Source: a virus
Taxonomy: Duplodnaviria; Heunggongvirae; Uroviricota; Caudoviricetes
IMG/VR virus record: IMGVR_UViG_2526164632_000020
Strand: one strand, 5' to 3'
DNA length: 13,180 bases
In this document: piece by piece, positions 452 to 13,180 of the stretch
How the letters are laid out: the number at the start of each line of letters is the position of its first letter
Numbering within the stretch: the stretch's first letter is position 1
Position numbers and translations under genes: made by a program
Notes under the pieces: generated by a model
Told to the model about the DNA's origin: nothing
Seen by the model: the letters and a program-made list of their open reading frames with translations, nothing else
The model's database searches: none

Positions 452-3025
452 TTACTGGACGGCAACAATCCGGTCTTCATTAACTTCCAGGCGAATCACT
501 TTACCCGGAACCAATTCACCAGACAGTATTTGCTGTGCCAGCGGGTTTTCGATCTGCTGCTGGATAGCACGTTTCAAAGGACGTGCACCATAGACTGGAT
601 CGTAACCGTTCTCGCTCAGCAGTTTCAGCGCCTCGTCAGAAATGTGGATTTCATAACCACGTTCTTCCAGACGTTTGTACAGACGTTTCAACTGAATCTG
701 CGCAATCGAGGCAATGTGCTGTTCACCCAGCGGATGGAAGACCACCACTTCATCAATACGGTTAATGAATTCCGGACGGAAGTTATGGCTTACCACACCG
801 AGCACCAGCTCTTTCATGTGCGCATAATCCAGTTCACCGAAGCGTTCCTGAATCAAATCGGAACCGAGGTTAGAGGTCATAATGACAACCGTATTACGGA
901 AGTCGACCGTTCTCCCCTGCCCGTCAGTCAGACGACCATCATCCAGTACCTGCAACAGAATGTTGAAGACATCCGGATGCGCTTTTTCCACTTCATCCAG
1001 CAGGATGACGGAATACGGACGACGACGCACAGCTTCGGTCAGGTAGCCACCTTCTTCATAACCGACATATCCCGGAGGCGCACCAACCAGACGAGACACC
1101 GAGTGTTTCTCCATAAACTCGGACATATCGATACGGACCATCGCCTCGTCGCTATCAAACATAAAGTTCGCCAGCGCCTTACAAAGCTCAGTTTTCCCCA
1201 CACCCGTTGGGCCGAGGAACAGGAATGAACCAATCGGGCGATTTGGATCCGCCAACCCCGCACGGCTACGGCGAATAGCGTTAGATACCGCATCAACCGC
1301 TTCGTTCTGACCAATGACGCGATGGTGCAGTTCTTGCTCCATACGCAGCAGTTTTTCGCGCTCGCTTTCCATCATGCGAGAAACCGGAATCCCCGTCCAA
1401 CGCGCCAGCACTTCAGCAATTTCGGCGTCGGTCACTTTATTACGCAACAGACGCATAGTTTTGCCTTCGAGCTGCGTTGCGGCTTCCAGTTGCTTTTCCA
1501 GTTCCGGGATTTTGCCGTATTGCAGTTCAGACATCCGCGCCAGGTCCCCCACACGGCGAGCCTGTTCAATAGCGATTTTCGCCTGTTCCAGTTCCGCTTT
1601 AATGGTCTGCGTACCAGAAAGCGATGCCTTCTCTGCTTTCCACTCTTCTTCTAACTCGGAGTACTGACGTTCTTTGTCGCTCAGTTCTTCGTTGAGCATA
1701 TCCAGGCGTTTTTTACTGGCTTCATCAGACTCTTTCATTAACGCCTGTTGTTCCAGTTTGAGCTGGATGATACGACGATCGAGTCGGTCGAGTTCTTCTG
1801 GTTTTGAGTCAATCTGCATACGAATGCTGGATGCTGCTTCATCGATCAGGTCGATGGCTTTATCCGGCAGCTGACGGTCAGCAATGTAGCGATGAGACAA
1901 CGTCGCCGCTGCAACAATTGCCGGGTCAGTAATTTGCACATGGTGGTGCAATTCGTAACGTTCTTTCAGGCCACGCAGAATCGCAATGGTATCTTCAACA
2001 GAAGGCTCGGCAACAAACACTTTCTGGAAACGACGTTCCAGCGCAGCATCTTTTTCGATGTACTGGCGATATTCGTCAAGCGTCGTGGCACCTACGCAGT
2101 GCAATTCACCACGCGCCAGCGCCGGTTTCAGCATGTTTCCGGCGTCCATTGCGCCATCGGCTTTACCCGCGCCGACCATGGTATGTAATTCGTCGATAAA
2201 CAGGATGACGTTGCCTTCCTGTTTGGCAAGATCGTTAAGCACGCCTTTTAAACGTTCTTCAAACTCACCGCGATATTTCGCCCCAGCCACCAGCGCGCCC
2301 ATATCCAGCGCCAGTACGCGGCGGCCTTTCAATCCTTCCGGCACTTCGCCGTTGATAATACGCTGCGCCAGACCTTCAACGATGGCAGTTTTACCGACGC
2401 CGGGTTCACCAATCAGTACCGGGTTATTTTTAGTACGACGTTGCAGCACCTGAATGGTACGGCGAATTTCTTCATCACGACCAATCACCGGATCGAGTTT
2501 GCCCTGTTCGGCTCGTTCGGTAAGGTCGATGGTATATTTTTTCAAAGCCTGACGTTGGTCTTCAGCACCTTGATCGTTCACGCTTTCACCTCCACGCATT
2601 TGTTCAATCGCTTGAGTAATGTTGGCGGTGGTCGCCCCTGCTGCTTTCAGGATGTCGGCCAGCGTGCCGCGAGACTCAAGTGCCGCCAGAACGAACAGTT
2701 CTGACGAGATAAAGTTATCACCACGTTTTTGCGCCAGCTTGTCGCAAAGATTAAGAACGCGCACCAGATCCTGTGATGGCTGGACATCACCACCAGTACC
2801 TTCAACCTGCGGTAAACGATTTAATGCCTGATTGATATCTGTGCGCAACTGGCCAGCATTTATGCCAGCGGATGTTAATAAAGGACTAACCGAACCCCCT
2901 TCCTGATTCAGCAGGGCGCTCATTAAATGAAGTGGTTCGATAAATTGGTTGTCGTGCCCGAGTGCAAGTGATTGGGCATCGGCAAGAGCAAGCTGGAATT
3001 TATTAGTAAGACGATCCAGACGCAT
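452..3025 (-). CDS. clpB: ClpB disaggregase (Hsp100, AAA+ chaperone), 857 aa
   Basis: ORF with two Walker A motifs ([16 protein letters not shown]) and a coiled-coil middle domain; starts [11 protein letters not shown] at ATG 3025 with SD GGGAGGAG upstream. The ORF-track start at 3037 is an upstream in-frame extension. Confidence 0.97.
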
Positions 3026-5950: not shown

Positions 5951-6346
<396 letters not shown>

Positions 6347-6369
6347 TCCTTTATATTGAGTGTATCGCC

Positions 6370-6393
6370 AACGCGCCTTCGGGCGCGTTTTTT
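6370..6393 (+). terminator. Rho-independent terminator of raiA
   Basis: Stem AACGCGCC / GGCGCGTT with loop TTCG followed by TTTTTT; 23 nt after the raiA stop. Confidence 0.75.
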
Positions 6394-6470
6394 GTAAAGC
6401 TAACAAATTGTTTCTATTAGCTTATTTCTTATAAACATCCACAAACTGTCCACATCAGTAATGATATACA

Positions 6471-6491
6471 AGCCCGCAAAAAATGCGGGCT
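6471..6491 (-). terminator. Hairpin 5 nt downstream of the methyltransferase stop (probable terminator between convergent raiA and prophage genes)
   Basis: Stem AGCCCGCA / TGCGGGCT with A5/T5 loop; on the minus strand followed by TGTATATCATT (weak U tract). Confidence 0.45.
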
Positions 6492-6496
6492 TTGTC

Positions 6497-7303
6497 TTAT
6501 GTAGCCGAAATGGTTGTGGTAATAGTCCCCCGAAGCCGCTGCGCTGCTACCTCAAAATAATGATCACTGGTTTCTATACCAATAAATTTTCGCCCTGCTT
6601 TCAGTGCAGCCACACCCGTTGTCCCTGACCCCATAAAAGGATCAAGGACTGTTCCGCCACTATTCACAGTCCTGACCAGTTCCGCCATTAGTTCTTCTGG
6701 TTTTCCGGTCGGGTGCATTTTCTTTGACGGGATAACCGGGTACGTCATGCAACCGTCGAACGGCCCCGAAGGCGATTTATCTAAATGGCCTTTGCTGCCC
6801 CAGACGATGTATTCGCACTGATGCCTGAAATACCCCGTATGGGGTGTTCGTGACCCCCTCCCCTTGTTCCACGCAATGATGCCGCGCCATGTAAAGCCGC
6901 TGGCCTGAAACGCATCGGTTAAAGCTGGTAGTTGTCGCCAGTCAGTAAATACCAGGGCATAACCGCCCGGCCTGACTGCGCGGTGTGCCTGTGCCATCCA
7001 TAATTGTGTCCAGTAAGCCCACGAACGGGCGTCCATGTTTTCACCCGCGAACCCATCAAAGCGGTGAAGGTTCTCGCCGTTCAGATATTTTGCATGGCTG
7101 CCTTGGTTGGTGCGTCCGGCCTTGTGTGTCGCACCCGAACTGTAAGGCGGGTCAGTGATTAAGGCATCAATGCTTTCTGGCTCAATCAGCGGCAATATTT
7201 CCAGCGCATTCCCACGACAGAGCGTGGCATTGTCAGTCTGATAAACCTTAGTGTGTTCCGGTGTATGTGCTGGTTGGTGCTGGATTGCGATCCCCACGGT
7301 CAT
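6497..7303 (-). CDS. Prophage DNA methyltransferase, beta-class N6-adenine/N4-cytosine family (DPPY motif IV before FxGSGTT motif I)
   Basis: 268-aa ORF with DPPY (catalytic motif) near the N-terminus and DPFMGSGTTGVAA (AdoMet motif) near the C-terminus. Start ATG 7303 lies only 2 nt after SD AGGAG; in-frame GTG 7297 has better spacing. Target specificity unknown. Confidence 0.85.
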   Translation of the reverse strand: MTVGIAIQHQPAHTPEHTKVYQTDNATLCRGNALEILPLIEPESIDALITDPPYSSGATHKAGRTNQGSHAKYLNGENLHRFDGFAGENMDARSWAYWTQLWMAQAHRAVRPGGYALVFTDWRQLPALTDAFQASGFTWRGIIAWNKGRGSRTPHTGYFRHQCEYIVWGSKGHLDKSPSGPFDGCMTYPVIPSKKMHPTGKPEELMAELVRTVNSGGTVLDPFMGSGTTGVAALKAGRKFIGIETSDHYFEVAAQRLRGTITTTISAT

Positions 7304-7445
7304 AACTCCTCATGTGTGTGGGGTGCTCGATGGCTCTCGTTATCTGGTTAAGTGTTTTGCAGCGCGGACATTTTATTTCAATGTAGTGAAATGAGGCGCG
7401 GGCAAGTAGTTTGTTGCAATTTTTGCATCGTACATTTTGCGTCAT
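7248..7445 (-). CDS. com: Com-like zinc-finger translational regulator (Mu Com family)
   Basis: 65-aa ORF MTQNVRCKNCNKLLARASFHYIEIKCPRCK...EHPT, matching the recalled Mu Com pattern (RCKNCNKLL...IEIRCPRCK...EHPT). SD AAGAGGTG 7 nt upstream of ATG 7445; 3' end overlaps the methyltransferase start by 56 nt. Confidence 0.75.
   Translation of the reverse strand: MTQNVRCKNCNKLLARASFHYIEIKCPRCKTLNQITRAIEHPTHMRSYDRGDRNPAPTSTYTGTH
7292..7323 (-). promoter_or_regulatory. mRNA stem-loop sequestering the methyltransferase SD and start codon (mom-like translation inhibition structure)
   Basis: On the minus-strand transcript CCCCAC (plus 7318-7323) pairs with GTGGGG (plus 7292-7297); the 20-nt loop holds SD AGGAG and ATG 7303, and the alternative GTG start is in the 3' arm. 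Confidence 0.45.
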
Positions 7446-7489
7446 TTGCGGCACCTCTTGTGTGGTTACTGCTGCCGATATGATAACAA

Positions 7490-7527
7490 ATCGATCGTTT
7501 TTATCGATCGGATTTATTGCATCGATC
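7490..7527 (-). promoter_or_regulatory. Cluster of three ATCGATC(G) repeats (three GATC Dam sites) upstream of the com promoter region
   Basis: ATCGATCG at 7490-7497 and 7503-7510, ATCGATC at 7521-7527, lying 45-82 nt upstream of the com ATG; resembles the Dam/OxyR-controlled region upstream of the Mu mom promoter. Confidence 0.4.
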
Positions 7528-7574
7528 TGTTATGCCTATTACTTATGAGTGGTGTTACCCTCATTTGTGAGGGT

Positions 7575-7612
7575 GACAAAAAGAAAACCCGCAGTTTTTA
7601 CGCTGCGGGTTT
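7575..7612 (-). terminator. Rho-independent terminator of the zinc-ribbon/TM2 gene
   Basis: Stem AAACCCGCAG / CTGCGGGTTT with 8-nt loop; on the minus strand followed by TCTTTTTGTC; 26 nt past the stop at 7638. Confidence 0.65.
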
Positions 7613-7637
7613 GTCATTCTGATTCGCCCACTAGGCA

Positions 7638-7934
7638 TTAGCCATATTTGCGGGCAAAGTCTTCATCAGAGGTGCATAGATAGATAAAAAACTCAATAAA
7701 TGCCACGATTGCCGGAATGAATGTCCAGCAAAAAATAAGGTAAAGGAATCCTTGCCCCACTTTACCTAAATAAAATTTGTGTGCACCAAGACCACCTAAA
7801 AAGAAAGCCAGTAGTGCGGCTGTCATTCTGCTTTTTGAACTTGCTGTTCTTTGAGGTGCTCCACAATTGGGGCAGGATGTGGCATCTTTATGTATTTCCT
7901 TGCCGCATCCGCGACAAAATACCATTTCACTCAT
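7638..7934 (-). CDS. Small membrane protein with N-terminal zinc-ribbon (CxxC...CxxC) and TM2-like domain; prophage cargo of unknown function
   Basis: 98-aa ORF MSEMVFCRGCGKEIHKDATSCPNCGAPQ followed by two hydrophobic helices with a TM2-type motif (LGGLGAHKFYLGKVGQG); SD-like AAAGGAA upstream. Confidence 0.7.
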   Translation of the reverse strand: MSEMVFCRGCGKEIHKDATSCPNCGAPQRTASSKSRMTAALLAFFLGGLGAHKFYLGKVGQGFLYLIFCWTFIPAIVAFIEFFIYLCTSDEDFARKYG

Positions 7935-8069
7935 AAAGAGTTCCTTTCAAATTTAAATAAGCGTTAAACCCACCACTCTTACTGGTGGGCCTCAATTTAA
8001 ATTTGGGTGCCACTTCGACCATACCCTGGCAACCGATTGACGGGGGATTGCTCCCCCGTCGCGGTTTCC

Positions 8070-8210
8070 TTACTGCTTACACTGTAAGAACGCCGCAAAC
8101 TCCGCTCCCCAGAAGCTCATCCGTATTTCGCACAGCGAACCATGCAGCATCCAGATGATGAGGATTGCCGTCACGCAGAACGTGATGGCCGTAAGCGATT
8201 TTTGCGACAT
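8070..8210 (-). CDS. hok: Hok/Gef-family type I toxin (46 aa), below the ORF-track length cut-off
   Basis: Hand translation of the minus strand from ATG 8210: MSQKSLTAITFCVTAILIIWMLHGSLCEIRMSFWGAEFAAFLQCKQ*. Single TM helix followed by the Hok signature SLCEIR...AAFL.C; SD AAGGAG 8 nt upstream. Confidence 0.6.
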   Translation of the reverse strand: MSQKSLTAITFCVTAILIIWMLHGSLCEIRMSFWGAEFAAFLQCKQ

Positions 8211-8340
8211 AGCACTTGCTCCTTTTCCGGAGAGGCGCTAACCTTTCACTTGTCAAGGTAATGCGGTTAGGGCCTCGGTTAAACAGAAATGTTTTCCGGG
8301 GCCTTTCCACATCCGGCCTTCGGGTATTCCCTCCGACCAT
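8077..8340 (-). CDS. mok: mok-like overlapping reading frame (modulator of killing) required for hok translation
   Basis: Open frame starting upstream of hok, overlapping nearly all of it in another frame and ending 7 nt before the hok stop, as in hok/mok loci. True start uncertain: ATG 8340 or GTG 8310 (GAAGG 7 nt upstream). Confidence 0.35.
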   Translation of the reverse strand: MVGGNTRRPDVERPRKTFLFNRGPNRITLTSERLAPLRKRSKCYVAKIAYGHHVLRDGNPHHLDAAWFAVRNTDELLGSGVCGVLTV

Positions 8341-8380
8341 CAGCCGAAAGGCACCCGCGCGTAATCTATCGCTTTTTTGT
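8290..8380 (+). ncRNA. sok: Predicted Sok-like antisense RNA (position approximate)
   Basis: Expected by analogy with hok/sok: a short antisense transcript covering the mok translation-initiation region. A plus-strand T6 run at 8373-8378 could be its terminator tail; no convincing promoter found by eye. Confidence 0.15.
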
Positions 8381-8400
8381 TACTCCGGCAATTCTGCCTG

Positions 8401-8661
8401 TTAATTCTGAGATAAAGGCAAGCTCATCTGATTGTTTCCCCTGTGTGAAGCTGGCAGCTCATGCCACGGGATACCTTCTGAAGAGTGAACGCCGGAGGCA
8501 TGTTTCGATGTGAATTTATGGAAAGCTTCCAGTGTTGAGAAGCATACGCCGCATTCCAGATTGTTACACTGGTAATACTTTTGCCGCACGGTGTTTGAAT
8601 CATTTTCCGGACGACTGGTGCGGATACGGGCAGATGCGCCACAAAGCGGACAACGGAACAT
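8401..8661 (-). CDS. ogr: Ogr/Delta-family zinc-finger late-gene transcription activator (P2-like)
   Basis: 86-aa ORF MFRCPLCGASARIRTSR...YYQCNNLECGVCF with the four-Cys Ogr zinc finger (P2 Ogr begins MFHCPLCQHAAHARTSR...YHQCQNVNCSATF); C-terminus diverges; SD AGGGAGG upstream. Confidence 0.8.
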   Translation of the reverse strand: MFRCPLCGASARIRTSRPENDSNTVRQKYYQCNNLECGVCFSTLEAFHKFTSKHASGVHSSEGIPWHELPASHRGNNQMSLPLSQN

Positions 8662-8676
8662 AGCGACCTCCCTTAA

Positions 8677-10729
<2,053 letters not shown>

Positions 10730-10734
10730 TTATC
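10730..10734. repeat. Target-site duplication TTATC (right copy)
   Basis: TTATC immediately outside the right inverted repeat. Confidence 0.7.
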
Positions 10735-11771
10735 AATGGTGTGCTCGGCTTTTGCAATGATCCAGTCCTGATTATCAATCTCGCTTTTAAATCCTGTTAC
10801 CGTGCCATGCATTTCGGGGTAGAGTTCTGCACGTCCACGCGCCAGCGTGATGGAGAATGATGCGGCTCCGCGTTGTAGTTGCTGCCACTTTGCCGCCGCT
10901 GCGCGTCTTGCTGCCTGCTCGTTCTGATAAGTCTTGCGTAACACAAACACATTGCCATCCGCGCCTTCCATATAGTCACCTTCACGGCTGCTGCTTTTCT
11001 CCTTTTTGGGTTTTGGCGGTTTACGGCGTTTCACGCTGACTTTTTTCTTTTTCCCGTAATTAAGATCAAGCCAGTAGGCGCGTACCCCCGTATACGCCTC
11101 GCGGTCAGCAATACGGAACTGATGGCGATCGCCGCTGCTGTGTGTAATGGCGAACGAGGGCAACGGCTGGCCCTGTGCGTTCACGCCACCACCTGGCATG
11201 ATGAATAACAGATTACCGCTTTTTACCGTGGTGATTGCGCCCAGCATTTCCGCCATGCGCGTAAGGAAGGACATGTCGCTTTCTTCGGTCTGGTCGGCGT
11301 GGTCGATTTCGATATCCATCAGCATTTCGCTGATTTGCGGTTTCAGACCATACCGATGAGCGATGGCGGATACCACACGCTCAACGGTCACATCATGCCA
11401 GGACACCTCACGTTTAACGTTAAATTCATCCCGAAAATCTGCGCTTCTGGCTGAAACAGTCAGCCTGTCCGGCGGTCCTTCGTGAGCGATTTCATCAACA
11501 ATGTAAGTGCCTTTTTCTGTCAGCGGTTCTCCCTTCCAGCCAATGAGAACCGTCAGGCGCGCGCCCCGTGGCGGTAGCTGCAACTGACCATCCGCATCAT
11601 CCAACGTGATGGTGAGCTGGTCCGCCTCAAACCCCGGTTGTCGGTCAGTGACAGGCTCATCAGGCGCTCTGCCACGCCTGACAGCGTTTTACCCTCCGCG
11701 AGAATATCAAAATCCGGCATTTTCACGGGGTCTGTGCCCTGACTGAGCAATTGCATGGTGGTGTCGGTCAT
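10730..11771 (-). pseudogene. P2-like tail protein D (late control gene D family), frameshifted near 11625-11637 and 3'-truncated by the IS insertion
   Basis: Start ATG 11771 (SD GGAGGA upstream): MTDTTMQLLSQGTDPVKMPDFDILAEGKTLSGVAERLMSLSLTDNRG, then the frame shifts by 1 nt at a GGGGTTT run into ...FEADQLTITLDDADGQLQLPPRGARL... (the 296-aa ORF). The reading frame runs into the IS right end at 10729. Confidence 0.85.
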
Positions 11772-11928
11772 CTGCTCCTCCCCTGTGCGGCATGGTCGCA
11801 TGTGCGTGCGGAGGGGGTTACTGCTTTTTGTTGTCGCCGGGTCGGGAGAACGGCGCAGGGGTGAGATTACGCGCGTGGTGGGTGATGATTGTTGCCGAAT
11901 CATTTAACGGATACAAGGGGCTGAAGCT

Positions 11929-13112
11929 ATGAGTGAAACTCGTTTTCATGGTGCCCGTGTTACGGAAATACCGACCTGGTAACAGCGATTAACGATGTTG
12001 ATTCCAGCGTTATCGGTATCGTGGCAACGGCGGATGATGCGGACGCGAAGCTGTTCCCGCTGAGCAAGCCCACACTGCTGACCCGCGTTAATGACGTGCT
12101 GGGAAAATGCGGGACAACGGGGACGCTTTATCGTGCGCTTAAGGCCATCGCAGACCAGGTGAGCACAAAGGTGATCGTCGTTCGCGTGGCTGAACACAAA
12201 GAAGAAGACGGAAAGACGCAGGATCAACTGGTTATCGGTGGTTCTGAAGATGACGGCAGCTATACGGGGATGTATGCGCTGCTTGTTGCAGAGCAGGATG
12301 AAAGCATCGGATACCGTCCGCGTATTCTGGCCGCGCCGGAGCTGGACACGGAGGCGGTGACAAAATCCCTGTGCGTGATTGCGGGTAAACTGCGCGCGTT
12401 TGTGTATGCCTCATGTCACGGCTGTAACACGATGGCTGAGGCGATTACCTACCGCCAGAAATTCAACGAACGTGAGGTGATGCTCTTATGGCCGGACTTC
12501 ATCGCCTACAACCCGAAAAGTGGCAAAAACGAAACGTTCCCCGCGCCTGCCTATGCGTGCGGCCTTCGTGCGTACATTGACCATGAGCAGGGCTGGCACA
12601 AATCGCTGTCCAACGTTCCTGTTAAAAATGTGCTGGGAATGTCCAGGCATGTGTTCTGGTCGTTGCAGGCCGAAGACAGTGATGCCAACAGCCTCAACAA
12701 CAAAGAAATCACGACCATTATTCGTCGCAACGGGTTCCGCTTCTGGGGCAACCGCACACCGGAAACGAACGCCTACATCTTTGAGGTGTATACCCGAACC
12801 GCACAGGTGCTGGCTGATTCAATTGCAGAAGCGCAGTTTGAAACCATCGACAGTCCACTGACGCCTGCGAACGTGAAGGATGTTATCAGTGCCATCAGGG
12901 CAAAACTGGATTCACTGGTTACTGCCGGGAAACTGATTGGCGCGGAGTGCTGGTATGACGTGGTGGATAACAGCACCACGGATTTACGTCAGGGACGTGT
13001 GCGTATTCGCTATAAATATACGCCCGTTCCGCCACTGGAAGACATGGAGCTTTACCAGACGTTTACTGATGAATACTTTGAACCTGCATTTGCGGTGCTG
13101 GGAGGTGCCTGA
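11929..13112 (+). CDS. P2-like tail sheath protein FI, with an N-terminal -1 frameshift near 11964-11969 (possibly a pseudogene)
   Basis: ATG 11929 with SD AAGGGG gives MSETRFHGARVTEI...* (stop 11980); the 363-aa ORF in the adjacent frame (...DADAKLFPL...GFRFWGNRT...YKYTPVPPLE...) carries the rest of the sheath. Span is 1184 nt, i.e. 1185 - 1. The intact downstream ORF begins at GTG 12021. Confidence 0.85.
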
Positions 13113-13180
13113 TGGCTGTGCCAAAACATCTTCGCTTTTTTACGCTGTTTGTGGATGGTGAAAACGAAGTGGGTAAGGTG
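13112..13180 (+). CDS. P2-like tail tube protein FII, 5' end only (runs off the window)
   Basis: ATG 13112 overlaps the FI stop (TGATG); hand translation MAVPKHLRFFTLFVDGENEVGKV resembles the recalled P2 FII N-terminus (MA.P.KL...F.NG). Only 23 codons are in the window. Confidence 0.55.
   Translation, partial: MAVPKHLRFFTLFVDGENEVGKV

What the first reader, a model, noticed from the sequence alone, without database searches (positions are those of the whole stretch)
11772..11928. Tail gene D and sheath gene FI are divergent, not collinear as in P2
In P2-family phages the tail module is transcribed in one direction in the order FI-FII-E-T-U-D-ogr. Here D-ogr runs on the minus strand while FI-FII start 157 bp away on the plus strand. 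The simplest explanation is an inversion of the FI-to-U block relative to D-ogr, with one breakpoint in this 157-bp interval; a mosaic phage with a different native order is the alternative.
Basis: partly seen in the sequence, partly recalled or inferred. Interest (0 to 1): 0.5.

Follow-up and report, generated by a model that had tools for sequence, protein, structure and literature searches.

The report
Normal gene order of P88-like prophages
The back-to-back arrangement of tail gene D and sheath gene FI is real, but it is the standard, long-fixed gene order of a very common family of P2-related prophages (phage P88 and relatives), not a rearrangement in this genome.

Summary
Gene D (minus strand, ATG at 11771) and sheath gene FI (plus strand, ATG at 11929) diverge across a 157-bp spacer, and tube gene FII follows at 13112.

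The arrangement is ordinary. The D–FI region is 94–98% identical to plaque-forming phages of the genus Xuanwuvirus (P88, ΦSM and others), which have the same layout. The junction lies colinearly in 1115 of 5426 complete E. coli genomes. It was also present in 23 of 23 P88-like loci from other Enterobacterales species.

Compared with P2, P88 is collinear throughout except that FI-FII-E-T-U is flipped in place. No inverted repeat, IS scar or invertase site marks the breakpoints.

The spacer carries a conserved TGT-N12-AGA dyad, one base from the P2 late-promoter consensus TGT-N12-ACA. Its spacing to FI resembles that of P2's pF. I infer a bidirectional Ogr-dependent late promoter, which is untested.

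An IS100 sits in the 3' end of D, between D and ogr. D and FI each carry a private 1-bp deletion, so this prophage is defective as sequenced.

The parts
8401..8661 (-). ogr-like zinc-finger late activator gene (86 aa, CX2C-X24-CX4C)
   Evidence: Pfam Ogr_Delta E=5e-14. It is 42% identical to P2 Ogr. The same gene is annotated ogr/Delta-like in E. coli 12A.
8704..8775 (-). 3' remnant of gene D (last 23 codons plus stop), cut off from the rest of the gene by IS100
   Evidence: This stretch continues the match to P88 up to record position 34362. The main body of D resumes the match at 34366.
8776..10729 (+). IS100 (IS21 family), 1954 bp, flanked by the 5-bp target duplication TTATC (8771-8775 and 10730-10734). 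Its istA has a +1 A at 9585 and its istB a -1 A after 10029.
   Evidence: The element is 99.9% identical over its full length to annotated IS100 copies. Indels are listed and the ends were read. Pfam finds rve and IstB_IS21 domains.
10730..11771 (-). Main body of tail gene D (baseplate hub / late control D), with a private 1-bp deletion between 11631 and 11632 that shifts the frame
   Evidence: Pfam Phage_GPD E=5e-17. It is 48% identical to P2 gpD. The alignments to P88, ΦSM and E. coli 12A show the deletion only in the window.
11772..11928 (.). D|FI spacer, inferred to be a bidirectional late-promoter region
   Evidence: The spacer is 146-157 bp in the 20 diverged loci measured, in P88 and in the window, and the alignment shows conserved blocks.
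11832..11849 (.). Dyad TGT-N12-AGA (TGTCGCCGGGTCGGGAGA, within TTTTTGTTGT...AGAACG), the putative Ogr-type activator site. Its centre at 11840.5 is 69.5 nt from the D ATG and 88.5 nt from the FI ATG.
   Evidence: In the 20 diverged relatives measured and P88 the dyad lies 68.5-73.5 nt from the D ATG and 78.5-88.5 nt from the FI ATG. TTGTTGT-N12-A[GC]A occurs only twice in the P88 genome: here and in the P|O spacer. The P2 pF site lies 82.5 nt from the FI ATG. The consensus TGT-N12-ACA is given in PMC3931495.
11887..11892 (+). Candidate -10 element for FI (GATTGT here; GATTAT in most relatives)
   Evidence: The block is conserved in the alignment. Its assignment as a -10 is inferred from position only; the generic sigma-70 scan did not call it.
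11929..13112 (+). Tail sheath gene FI, with a private 1-bp deletion (A4 to A3 at 11966-11968) giving a stop after 17 codons. The reading frame resumes in the 12021-13112 ORF.
   Evidence: Pfam Phage_sheath_1, Phage_sheath_1C and Gp18_domIII_N. It is 46% identical to P2 FI. The deletion is seen against P88, ΦSM and 12A.
13112..13180 (+). Start of tail tube gene FII; it runs off the end of the window
   Evidence: The first 23 residues are identical to the P88 tube protein.

Best explanation
The window holds the right-hand end of a P88-like (genus Xuanwuvirus, family Peduoviridae) prophage integrated next to raiA. In this whole lineage the tail genes FI-FII-E-E'-T-U are transcribed in the opposite direction to D-ogr and to the baseplate and fibre genes. 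The D|FI divergence is therefore the native, fixed gene order. Relative to the P2 order it amounts to an old in-place inversion of the FI-to-U block.

The FI promoter, with its activator site, appears to have travelled with FI. That placed an Ogr-type dyad between FI and D, which in P2 has no promoter of its own and overlaps U by one base. I infer that the roughly 150-bp spacer now works like the P2 pP/pO region. There, one central activator site serves two divergent late promoters. Here, one would drive FI to U and the other D (and, by read-through, ogr).

Shown: gene identities, the orientation, its conservation, and the conserved dyad with its spacing. Inferred: the ancient inversion, its polarity, and promoter function.

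In this particular copy the module is damaged. IS100 is inserted in D, and D and FI each carry a private 1-bp deletion.
For: Same arrangement in related phages and genomes:
- The D-FI region is 93.8-97.9% identical to P88, 500465-2, ΦSM, P884B11, PhiR44_2 and Chuche.
- The P88 and ΦSM annotations show D(-) | sheath, tube, E, E', tape measure, U (+) | invertase(-) | fibre and baseplate genes (-).
- P88 and ΦSM are viable phages (PMC5285337, PMC6456863).
- 1115 of 5426 complete E. coli genomes hold the junction in one colinear piece.
- Among 80 species-level loci, all 23 with a P88-like sheath (58-97% identity) are divergent, and all 51 P2-like loci in which D was detected are collinear.

Comparison with P2:
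- All other shared genes are collinear and only FI-U is flipped. Identity inside the block is 31-46%; most flanking late genes are 26-54%, with H, I and G higher. D is 49% and FI 46% by BLASTP.

Promoter inference:
- The spacer is 146-157 bp, with the dyad TGT-N12-A[GC]A at 68.5-73.5 nt from the D ATG and 78.5-88.5 nt from the FI ATG in 20 diverged loci, P88 and the window.
- The P2 pF site lies 82.5 nt from the FI ATG. The single P2 pP/pO site lies 55.5 nt from each mapped start.
- Where the motif was found in P2-type loci, it lies 77.5-82.5 nt from the FI ATG.
- The extended motif occurs only in the P|O and D|FI spacers of P88.
- An Ogr-family gene is present.
Against: - No transcription data exist for this lineage in what I could search. 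The start sites, the -10 elements and Ogr dependence are inferred from position and conservation.
- The dyad departs from TGT-N12-ACA by one base (AGA) in most members.
- The strict pattern used for the genome count was derived from the two sites it then recovered, so its enrichment is partly circular.
- The predicted D leader would be only about 14 nt.
- Most P2-type loci from Pantoea, Erwinia and Burkholderia did not match the simple dyad pattern, so the spacing comparison rests on a subset.
- No phylogeny was built, so the polarity (P2 order ancestral) is an inference. It rests on collinear order in all non-P88 loci, including those from Burkholderia.
Confidence: 0.85

Rival explanations
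1. A recent inversion of the FI-to-U block happened in this prophage, with one breakpoint in the 157-bp spacer.
For: The order differs from P2, and the prophage is visibly damaged by IS100 and frameshifts, so rearrangement is conceivable.
Against: The same junction occurs at 94-98% identity in isolated viable phages and in 1115 complete E. coli genomes. It also occurs in 23 of 23 P88-like loci of other species, whose spacers have diverged but keep the same architecture. There are no repeats or IS remnants at the breakpoints. The IS100 lies 1 kb away at the other end of D and has a simple 5-bp duplication, as expected for a plain insertion.
Confidence: 0.01
2. Mosaic origin: the FI-U block was imported from a different phage lineage and happened to insert in the opposite orientation, rather than being an in-place inversion.
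For: Phage tail modules do recombine. E and T are the least P2-like genes (31-33% identity). Gene rearrangements between tail operons are described in other P2-like phages (Smp131, PMC3931495).
Against: FI, FII and U are as similar to P2 (42-46%) as the flanking V, W, D and Q (44-50%). Across 23 loci D and FI identities to P88 fall together: for example 80/83, 77/76, 72/70 and 64/58%. The block has exactly the same gene content and internal order as in P2, and the same dyad-to-FI spacing.
Confidence: 0.1
3. The FI-U block is a switchable segment flipped by the adjacent Hin/Gin/Cin-type invertase, so both orientations exist.
For: In P88 the invertase gene lies directly next to U, at the far end of the block.
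Against: The invertase's crossover sites (TTATCnAAnACCTCGGTTTACAGGAA) flank the tail-fibre segment only. No such site lies in the window within 3 mismatches. The only core-like match is a chance-level hit inside D. No inverted repeat links the two block ends. Every P88-like locus has the same orientation, including several in which the search found no invertase homologue.
Confidence: 0.01
4. The divergent junction is an assembly artefact, for example a misjoin at a repeated prophage or IS.
For: The region carries four single-base indels, in D, FI, istA and istB. These could be uncorrected read errors in repeated DNA.
Against: The junction itself matches P88, ΦSM and E. coli 12A base for base apart from point differences. 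The flank from raiA to D is contiguous in 12A at 99.9% identity.
Confidence: 0.01

Closest known systems
Escherichia phage P88 and other Xuanwuvirus (Peduoviridae) phages and prophages: ΦSM, P884B11, 500465-2, PhiR44_2, Chuche
   Same: They are 94-98% identical across D, the spacer, FI and the start of FII. The divergent D|FI layout and the spacer are the same, and ogr and hok-like genes lie downstream of D.
   Different: The window copy has IS100 in the 3' end of D and private 1-bp deletions in D and FI. It also has a CT-to-TC change in the D ribosome-binding region at 11779-11780. Only one end of the prophage lies in the window.
Phage P2 F operon (pF-FI-FII-E-E'-T-U-D, then ogr)
   Same: The genes are homologous (FI 46%, D 48-50%, ogr 42%). 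Content and internal order of FI to U are the same. An Ogr-type activator gene lies after D, and an activator-type dyad lies about 83-88 nt upstream of FI.
   Different: In P2, D is the last gene of the F operon, overlaps U by one base and has no promoter of its own. Here FI-U points away from D, which must be expressed from the spacer.
P2 pP/pO divergent late promoters with one shared Ogr site
   Same: Two late genes diverge across about 150 bp with a single central TGT-N12-type dyad. In P88 the same extended motif is found in the P|O spacer and the D|FI spacer.
   Different: For pP/pO the start sites and the activator site are annotated from experiments in the P2 record. For D|FI nothing has been mapped, and the D side would have a very short leader.
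IS100 (IS21 family) insertions, as in Yersinia pestis and E. coli plasmids
   Same: The element is 1954 bp, 99.6-99.9% identical, carries istA and istB, and has a 5-bp target duplication.
   Different: This copy has one-base indels in both istA and istB.

Membership tests
Xuanwuvirus / P88-like prophage | High nucleotide identity to P88 across the tail module | tested here: met
   97.9% over 2451 bp to P88, and 93.8-97.7% to five other phages of the group. The left part (ogr, hok region, methylase) matches Chuche and P88 at about 96%.
Xuanwuvirus / P88-like prophage | Gene order ogr(-) D(-) | FI FII E E' T U (+) | invertase or fibre genes (-) | tested here: met
   The window shows ogr(-), D(-), FI(+) and the FII(+) start. 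The rest lies outside the window but is present in the closest genome, E. coli 12A, and in P88 and ΦSM.
Xuanwuvirus / P88-like prophage | Whole-genome similarity used for genus assignment | not testable with these tools
   Only about 6.8 kb of the prophage lies in the window.
P2-type F operon | FI-FII-E-T-U-D transcribed in one direction from pF | tested here: not met
   D is on the opposite strand from FI. This holds in 23 of 23 P88-like loci.
P2-type F operon | Homologous FI, FII, D and ogr proteins | tested here: met
   The window's FI, D and ogr are 42-48% identical to P2 by tblastn. FII was compared only through P88 (42% to P2). Pfam finds Phage_GPD, Phage_sheath_1 and Ogr_Delta.
Ogr-dependent late promoter (P2/186/P4 type) | TGT-N12-ACA dyad about 55 nt upstream of the transcript start | tested here: inconclusive
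   No exact TGT-N12-ACA lies in the spacer. TGT-N12-AGA at 11832-11849 is conserved in position across the clade, and two subgroups have ACA. Transcript starts are unknown.
Ogr-dependent late promoter (P2/186/P4 type) | Transcription requires the Ogr-family activator | not testable with these tools
   This needs reporter or RNA experiments.
Hin/Gin/Cin invertible segment | Crossover sites in inverted orientation flanking the segment | tested here: not met
   The sites flank only the fibre segment in P88. None lies in the window or at the block ends.
Hin/Gin/Cin invertible segment | Both orientations found among closely related copies | tested here: not met
   All 23 P88-like loci and the six phages have one orientation.
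IS100 insertion | Full-length element with terminal repeats, istA/istB and a short target duplication | tested here: met
   1954 bp, 99.9% identity, TTATC duplication.

The most novel reading that the evidence does not exclude
The D|FI spacer of P88-like phages is a second bidirectional Ogr-dependent late promoter. It would have been created when an ancient inversion carried pF, with its symmetric activator site, next to the previously promoter-less gene D. A single dyad would then have been co-opted to drive both FI-U and D-ogr, with the D transcript possibly feeding back on ogr.
Probability: 0.55. Interest if true: 0.25.

Novelty: already known. Interest (0 to 1): 0.12.

Why it matters
It matters little for discovery. 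The arrangement is visible in published and annotated phage genomes (P88, 2017) and in about a fifth of complete E. coli genomes, although I found no paper that discusses it as an inversion.

Its practical value is for annotation. P2 gene order should not be used as the template for Xuanwuvirus-type prophages, and a divergent D/FI pair should not be flagged as a rearrangement.

The one modestly interesting point is regulatory. A symmetric activator site may let an operon fragment be flipped and still leave both it and the stranded downstream gene expressed. This could be tested with simple reporter assays.

Tried and rejected
- An exact TGT-N12-ACA search of the window found only one chance-level hit, outside the spacer. 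The motif was recognised only after allowing AGA and comparing relatives.
- The generic sigma-70 and terminator scan of 11500-12200 found nothing useful in the spacer, as expected for activator-dependent promoters.
- The inverted-repeat search across the flipped block in P88 gave only short, imperfect, chance-like pairs. None joined the two breakpoints.
- A search for the invertase crossover site or its core found none in the spacer.
- Rfam at gathering threshold on 6300-13180 gave no hits.
- Literature searches for an explicit description of this inversion (Xuanwuvirus; P2-like plus inversion or gene order; Peduoviridae synteny) found no paper that discusses it.
- My first automatic choice of D start codons overshot in several loci. 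It was redone with a ribosome-binding-site filter. Three loci still gave no start: L005 and L006, which are nearly identical to P88, and L020, which has Ns and a disrupted D.
- I did not use the large protein-database searches, structure prediction or metagenome scans, because the DNA-level matches already settled the question.

Full report
**What is in the window.** Positions 1 to about 6350 carry intact ORFs whose products read as the E. coli host genes clpB, yfiH, rluD, bamD and raiA (bamD and raiA are annotated as such in matching genomes). From about 6500 onward the DNA is prophage:
- a DNA methylase (6497-7303, minus strand);
- a TM2-domain gene (7638-7934, minus);
- an Ogr/Delta zinc-finger gene (8401-8661, minus);
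- an IS21-family element;
- a Phage_GPD gene (minus);
- a tail-sheath gene (plus) (Pfam).

P2 proteins place D at 11634-10729 (minus), FI at 11988-13079 (plus) and ogr at 8661-8503 (minus). FII starts at 13112 and is identical to the P88 tube protein for the 23 codons before the window ends.

**The observation.** D starts at the ATG whose complement ends at 11771, preceded by GGAGGAG. FI starts at 11929.

- IS100 in D. A complete 1954-bp IS100 occupies 8776-10729, flanked by the 5-bp duplication TTATC (8771-8775 and 10730-10734). It is 99.9% identical to annotated copies. It lies 67 bp before the D stop codon, so D and ogr are separated, and the last 23 codons of D (8704-8775) are detached.
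- D frameshift. D has a 1-bp deletion between 11631 and 11632.
- FI frameshift. FI has lost one A of an A4 run (11966-11968), which gives a stop after 17 codons.
- Both deletions are absent from P88, ΦSM and the closest genome, E. coli O111:H2 strain 12A.
- The IS100 copy itself has a +1 A in istA (9585) and a -1 A in istB (after 10029).

That makes four single-base indels in 4.4 kb of repeated DNA, against none in 6 kb of host genes. They may be real decay. They may also be unpolished read errors in multi-copy sequence. I cannot tell which.

**Is the arrangement unusual?** No.
- The D-FI region matches phages P88, 500465-2, ΦSM, P884B11, PhiR44_2 and Chuche at 93.8-97.9% in one colinear piece.
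- In P88 and ΦSM the annotation reads D (minus) | sheath, tube, E, E', tape measure, U (plus) | DNA invertase (minus) | invertible fibre segment | H, I, J, W, V (minus).
- P88 was induced and plaque-purified, and ΦSM is a spontaneously released temperate phage that forms lysogens (PMC5285337, PMC6456863).
- In complete E. coli genomes, 1115 of 5426 hold the junction colinearly at 95-99% identity.
- Strain 12A has the same prophage between pheL and raiA, with FI-FII-E-E'-T-U, invertase, fibre, baseplate, lysis, head, replication and integrase genes all in the P88 order.

**Comparison with P2.** tblastn of all P2 proteins against P88 shows complete collinearity for Q, P, O, N, M, L, X, R, S, V, W, J, I, H, G, D, ogr, int, C, cox and A. 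The only exception is FI, FII, E, T and U, which lie in the same place but on the other strand.

Identities inside the block are FI 46%, FII 42%, E 31%, T 33% and U 46%. The other flanking late genes range from 26% (S) to 54% (J) (for example Q 47, P 44, N 41, V 47, D 50), with H and I at 61-65%. Only G, at 95%, stands apart as a recent exchange.

So the difference is formally an in-place inversion of exactly the FI-to-U block.

**How old and how widespread.** A scan of one genome per species returned 80 loci, which I classified by tblastn.
- All 23 loci whose sheath is 58-97% identical to P88 show ogr(-) D(-) | FI FII T U (+) | G/H/I/J (-). They come from Salmonella, Citrobacter, Edwardsiella, Enterobacter, Kosakonia, Mixta, Pantoea, Erwinia, Izhakiella, Trabulsiella, Klebsiella, Pectobacterium and Symbiopectobacterium.
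- All 51 P2-like loci with a detectable D, including those from Burkholderia, are fully collinear.
- D and FI identities to P88 fall together across the clade (80/83, 77/76, 72/70, 64/58%).

This argues for co-inheritance rather than import of a foreign block. The collinear order in every non-P88 lineage suggests that it is ancestral. No tree was built, so this polarity is an inference.

**Breakpoints.** In P88 no inverted repeat links the U/invertase boundary with the D|FI spacer. Between the invertase gene and U lies an 18-bp-stem hairpin (27555-27596), which looks like a two-way terminator for the convergent units.

The invertase's crossover sites (TTATCnAAnACCTCGGTTTACAGGAA) flank only the fibre segment. 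No copy exists in the window. The only core-like match is a chance-level hit inside D. The block is therefore not a switchable segment, and no scar of the event remains.

**How the spacer probably works.** P2 late promoters carry an Ogr-binding dyad, TGT-N12-ACA (PMC3931495, citing Christie and Calendar 1985 and Julien and Calendar 1995).

The P2 record annotates one site for the divergent pP and pO promoters. By my reading the site is TGT-N12-CCA, centred at 3071.5, with mapped starts at 3016 and 3127, each 55.5 nt from the centre. It also annotates a site for pF, centred at 17569.5, with the start at 17626-17628 and the FI ATG 82.5 nt from the centre.

The window spacer contains TTTTTGTTGT-cgccgggtcggg-AGAACG, that is TGT-N12-AGA at 11832-11849. 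Its centre is 69.5 nt from the D ATG and 88.5 nt from the FI ATG.

Across 20 diverged loci, P88 and the window:
- the spacer is 146-157 bp;
- the dyad TGT-N12-A[GC]A lies 68.5-73.5 nt from D and 78.5-88.5 nt from FI;
- two subgroups have the exact ACA;
- the surrounding sequence is otherwise poorly conserved, apart from a GATTAT-like block where a -10 for FI would lie and a GC-rich CACGCGCGCG block on the D side.

In P2-type loci where the simple pattern matched, it lies 77.5-82.5 nt from the FI ATG. Three further loci gave 47.5-50.5 nt, which I attribute to my script choosing an upstream in-frame ATG.

In the 35.8-kb P88 genome, TTGTTGT-N12-A[GC]A occurs exactly twice, in the P|O spacer and in the D|FI spacer. 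That pattern was derived from those two sites, so the count only confirms that there is no third site.

My reading is as follows. pF moved with FI in the inversion. The dyad, being symmetric, now also serves a promoter for D, which in P2 overlaps U by one base and has no promoter of its own. This is an inference. No transcript mapping was available.

**Verdict.** The interpretation as a rearrangement of this prophage is not. This is the ordinary gene order of a named phage genus that is common in Enterobacterales. Novelty is nil at the level of the arrangement. The bidirectional-promoter reading is a small, testable addition.

Noticed in passing
window 8776-10729 (target duplications at 8771-8775 and 10730-10734): A full-length IS100 is inserted in the 3' end of tail gene D with a TTATC duplication. 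The closest E. coli genome (O111:H2 strain 12A) has the same prophage at the same site without it.
   Followed up: yes
window 9585, 10029/10030, 11631/11632, 11966-11968: Four single-base indels (istA +1, istB -1, D -1, FI -1) lie within 4.4 kb of repeated DNA, three of them in A runs, while 6 kb of adjacent host genes are intact. They may be real pseudogenisation or unpolished errors in multi-copy sequence.
   Followed up: partly
window 11779-11780: The D ribosome-binding region reads GGGGAGGAG on the minus strand here, against GGGAGGGAG in P88, ΦSM and 12A. This dinucleotide swap is private to the window.
   Followed up: no
window ~6350-6500; L087 (E. coli 12A) 884-39057: The prophage sits between pheL and raiA. 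In 12A the integrase end is itself interrupted by an IS66-family element (IS679), with a second partial integrase next to pheL. The attachment site was not delimited.
   Followed up: partly
window 6497-7454 and ~8077-8340; L087 37344-39057: The prophage end carries accessory genes. In 12A these are a Com-family regulator gene overlapping a DNA methyltransferase gene, a TM2-domain gene, and a Hok/Gef toxin locus between ogr and TM2. No Rfam hit was found for a Sok-like RNA at gathering threshold.
   Followed up: no
L003 (P88) 27555-27596: An 18-bp-stem hairpin with T runs on both sides lies in the 35-bp gap between the convergent invertase and U genes. It is probably a two-way terminator at the far end of the flipped block.
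   Followed up: partly
L003 (P88) 33155-33286; E. coli RefSeq records: A 43-codon 'hypothetical protein' is annotated inside the D|FI spacer, overlapping the FI start. In many E. coli genomes D is annotated as a shortened 'VgrG/Pvc8 family' protein plus a hypothetical protein. These look like annotation artefacts around the spacer rather than real genes.
   Followed up: no
L003 (P88) 34476-34634: P88 has an ogr homologue directly after D that is not annotated in NC_026014. The ΦSM record (OR565851) labels D as 'ogr' and the sheath as 'late control gene D', so its names appear shifted by one gene.
   Followed up: partly
L006 and L052 (record titled Vagococcus sp. WN89Y): A genome labelled Vagococcus (a Firmicute) carries a 97%-identical P88-like locus and also a P2-like locus. 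This points to contamination of that assembly with enterobacterial DNA.
   Followed up: no
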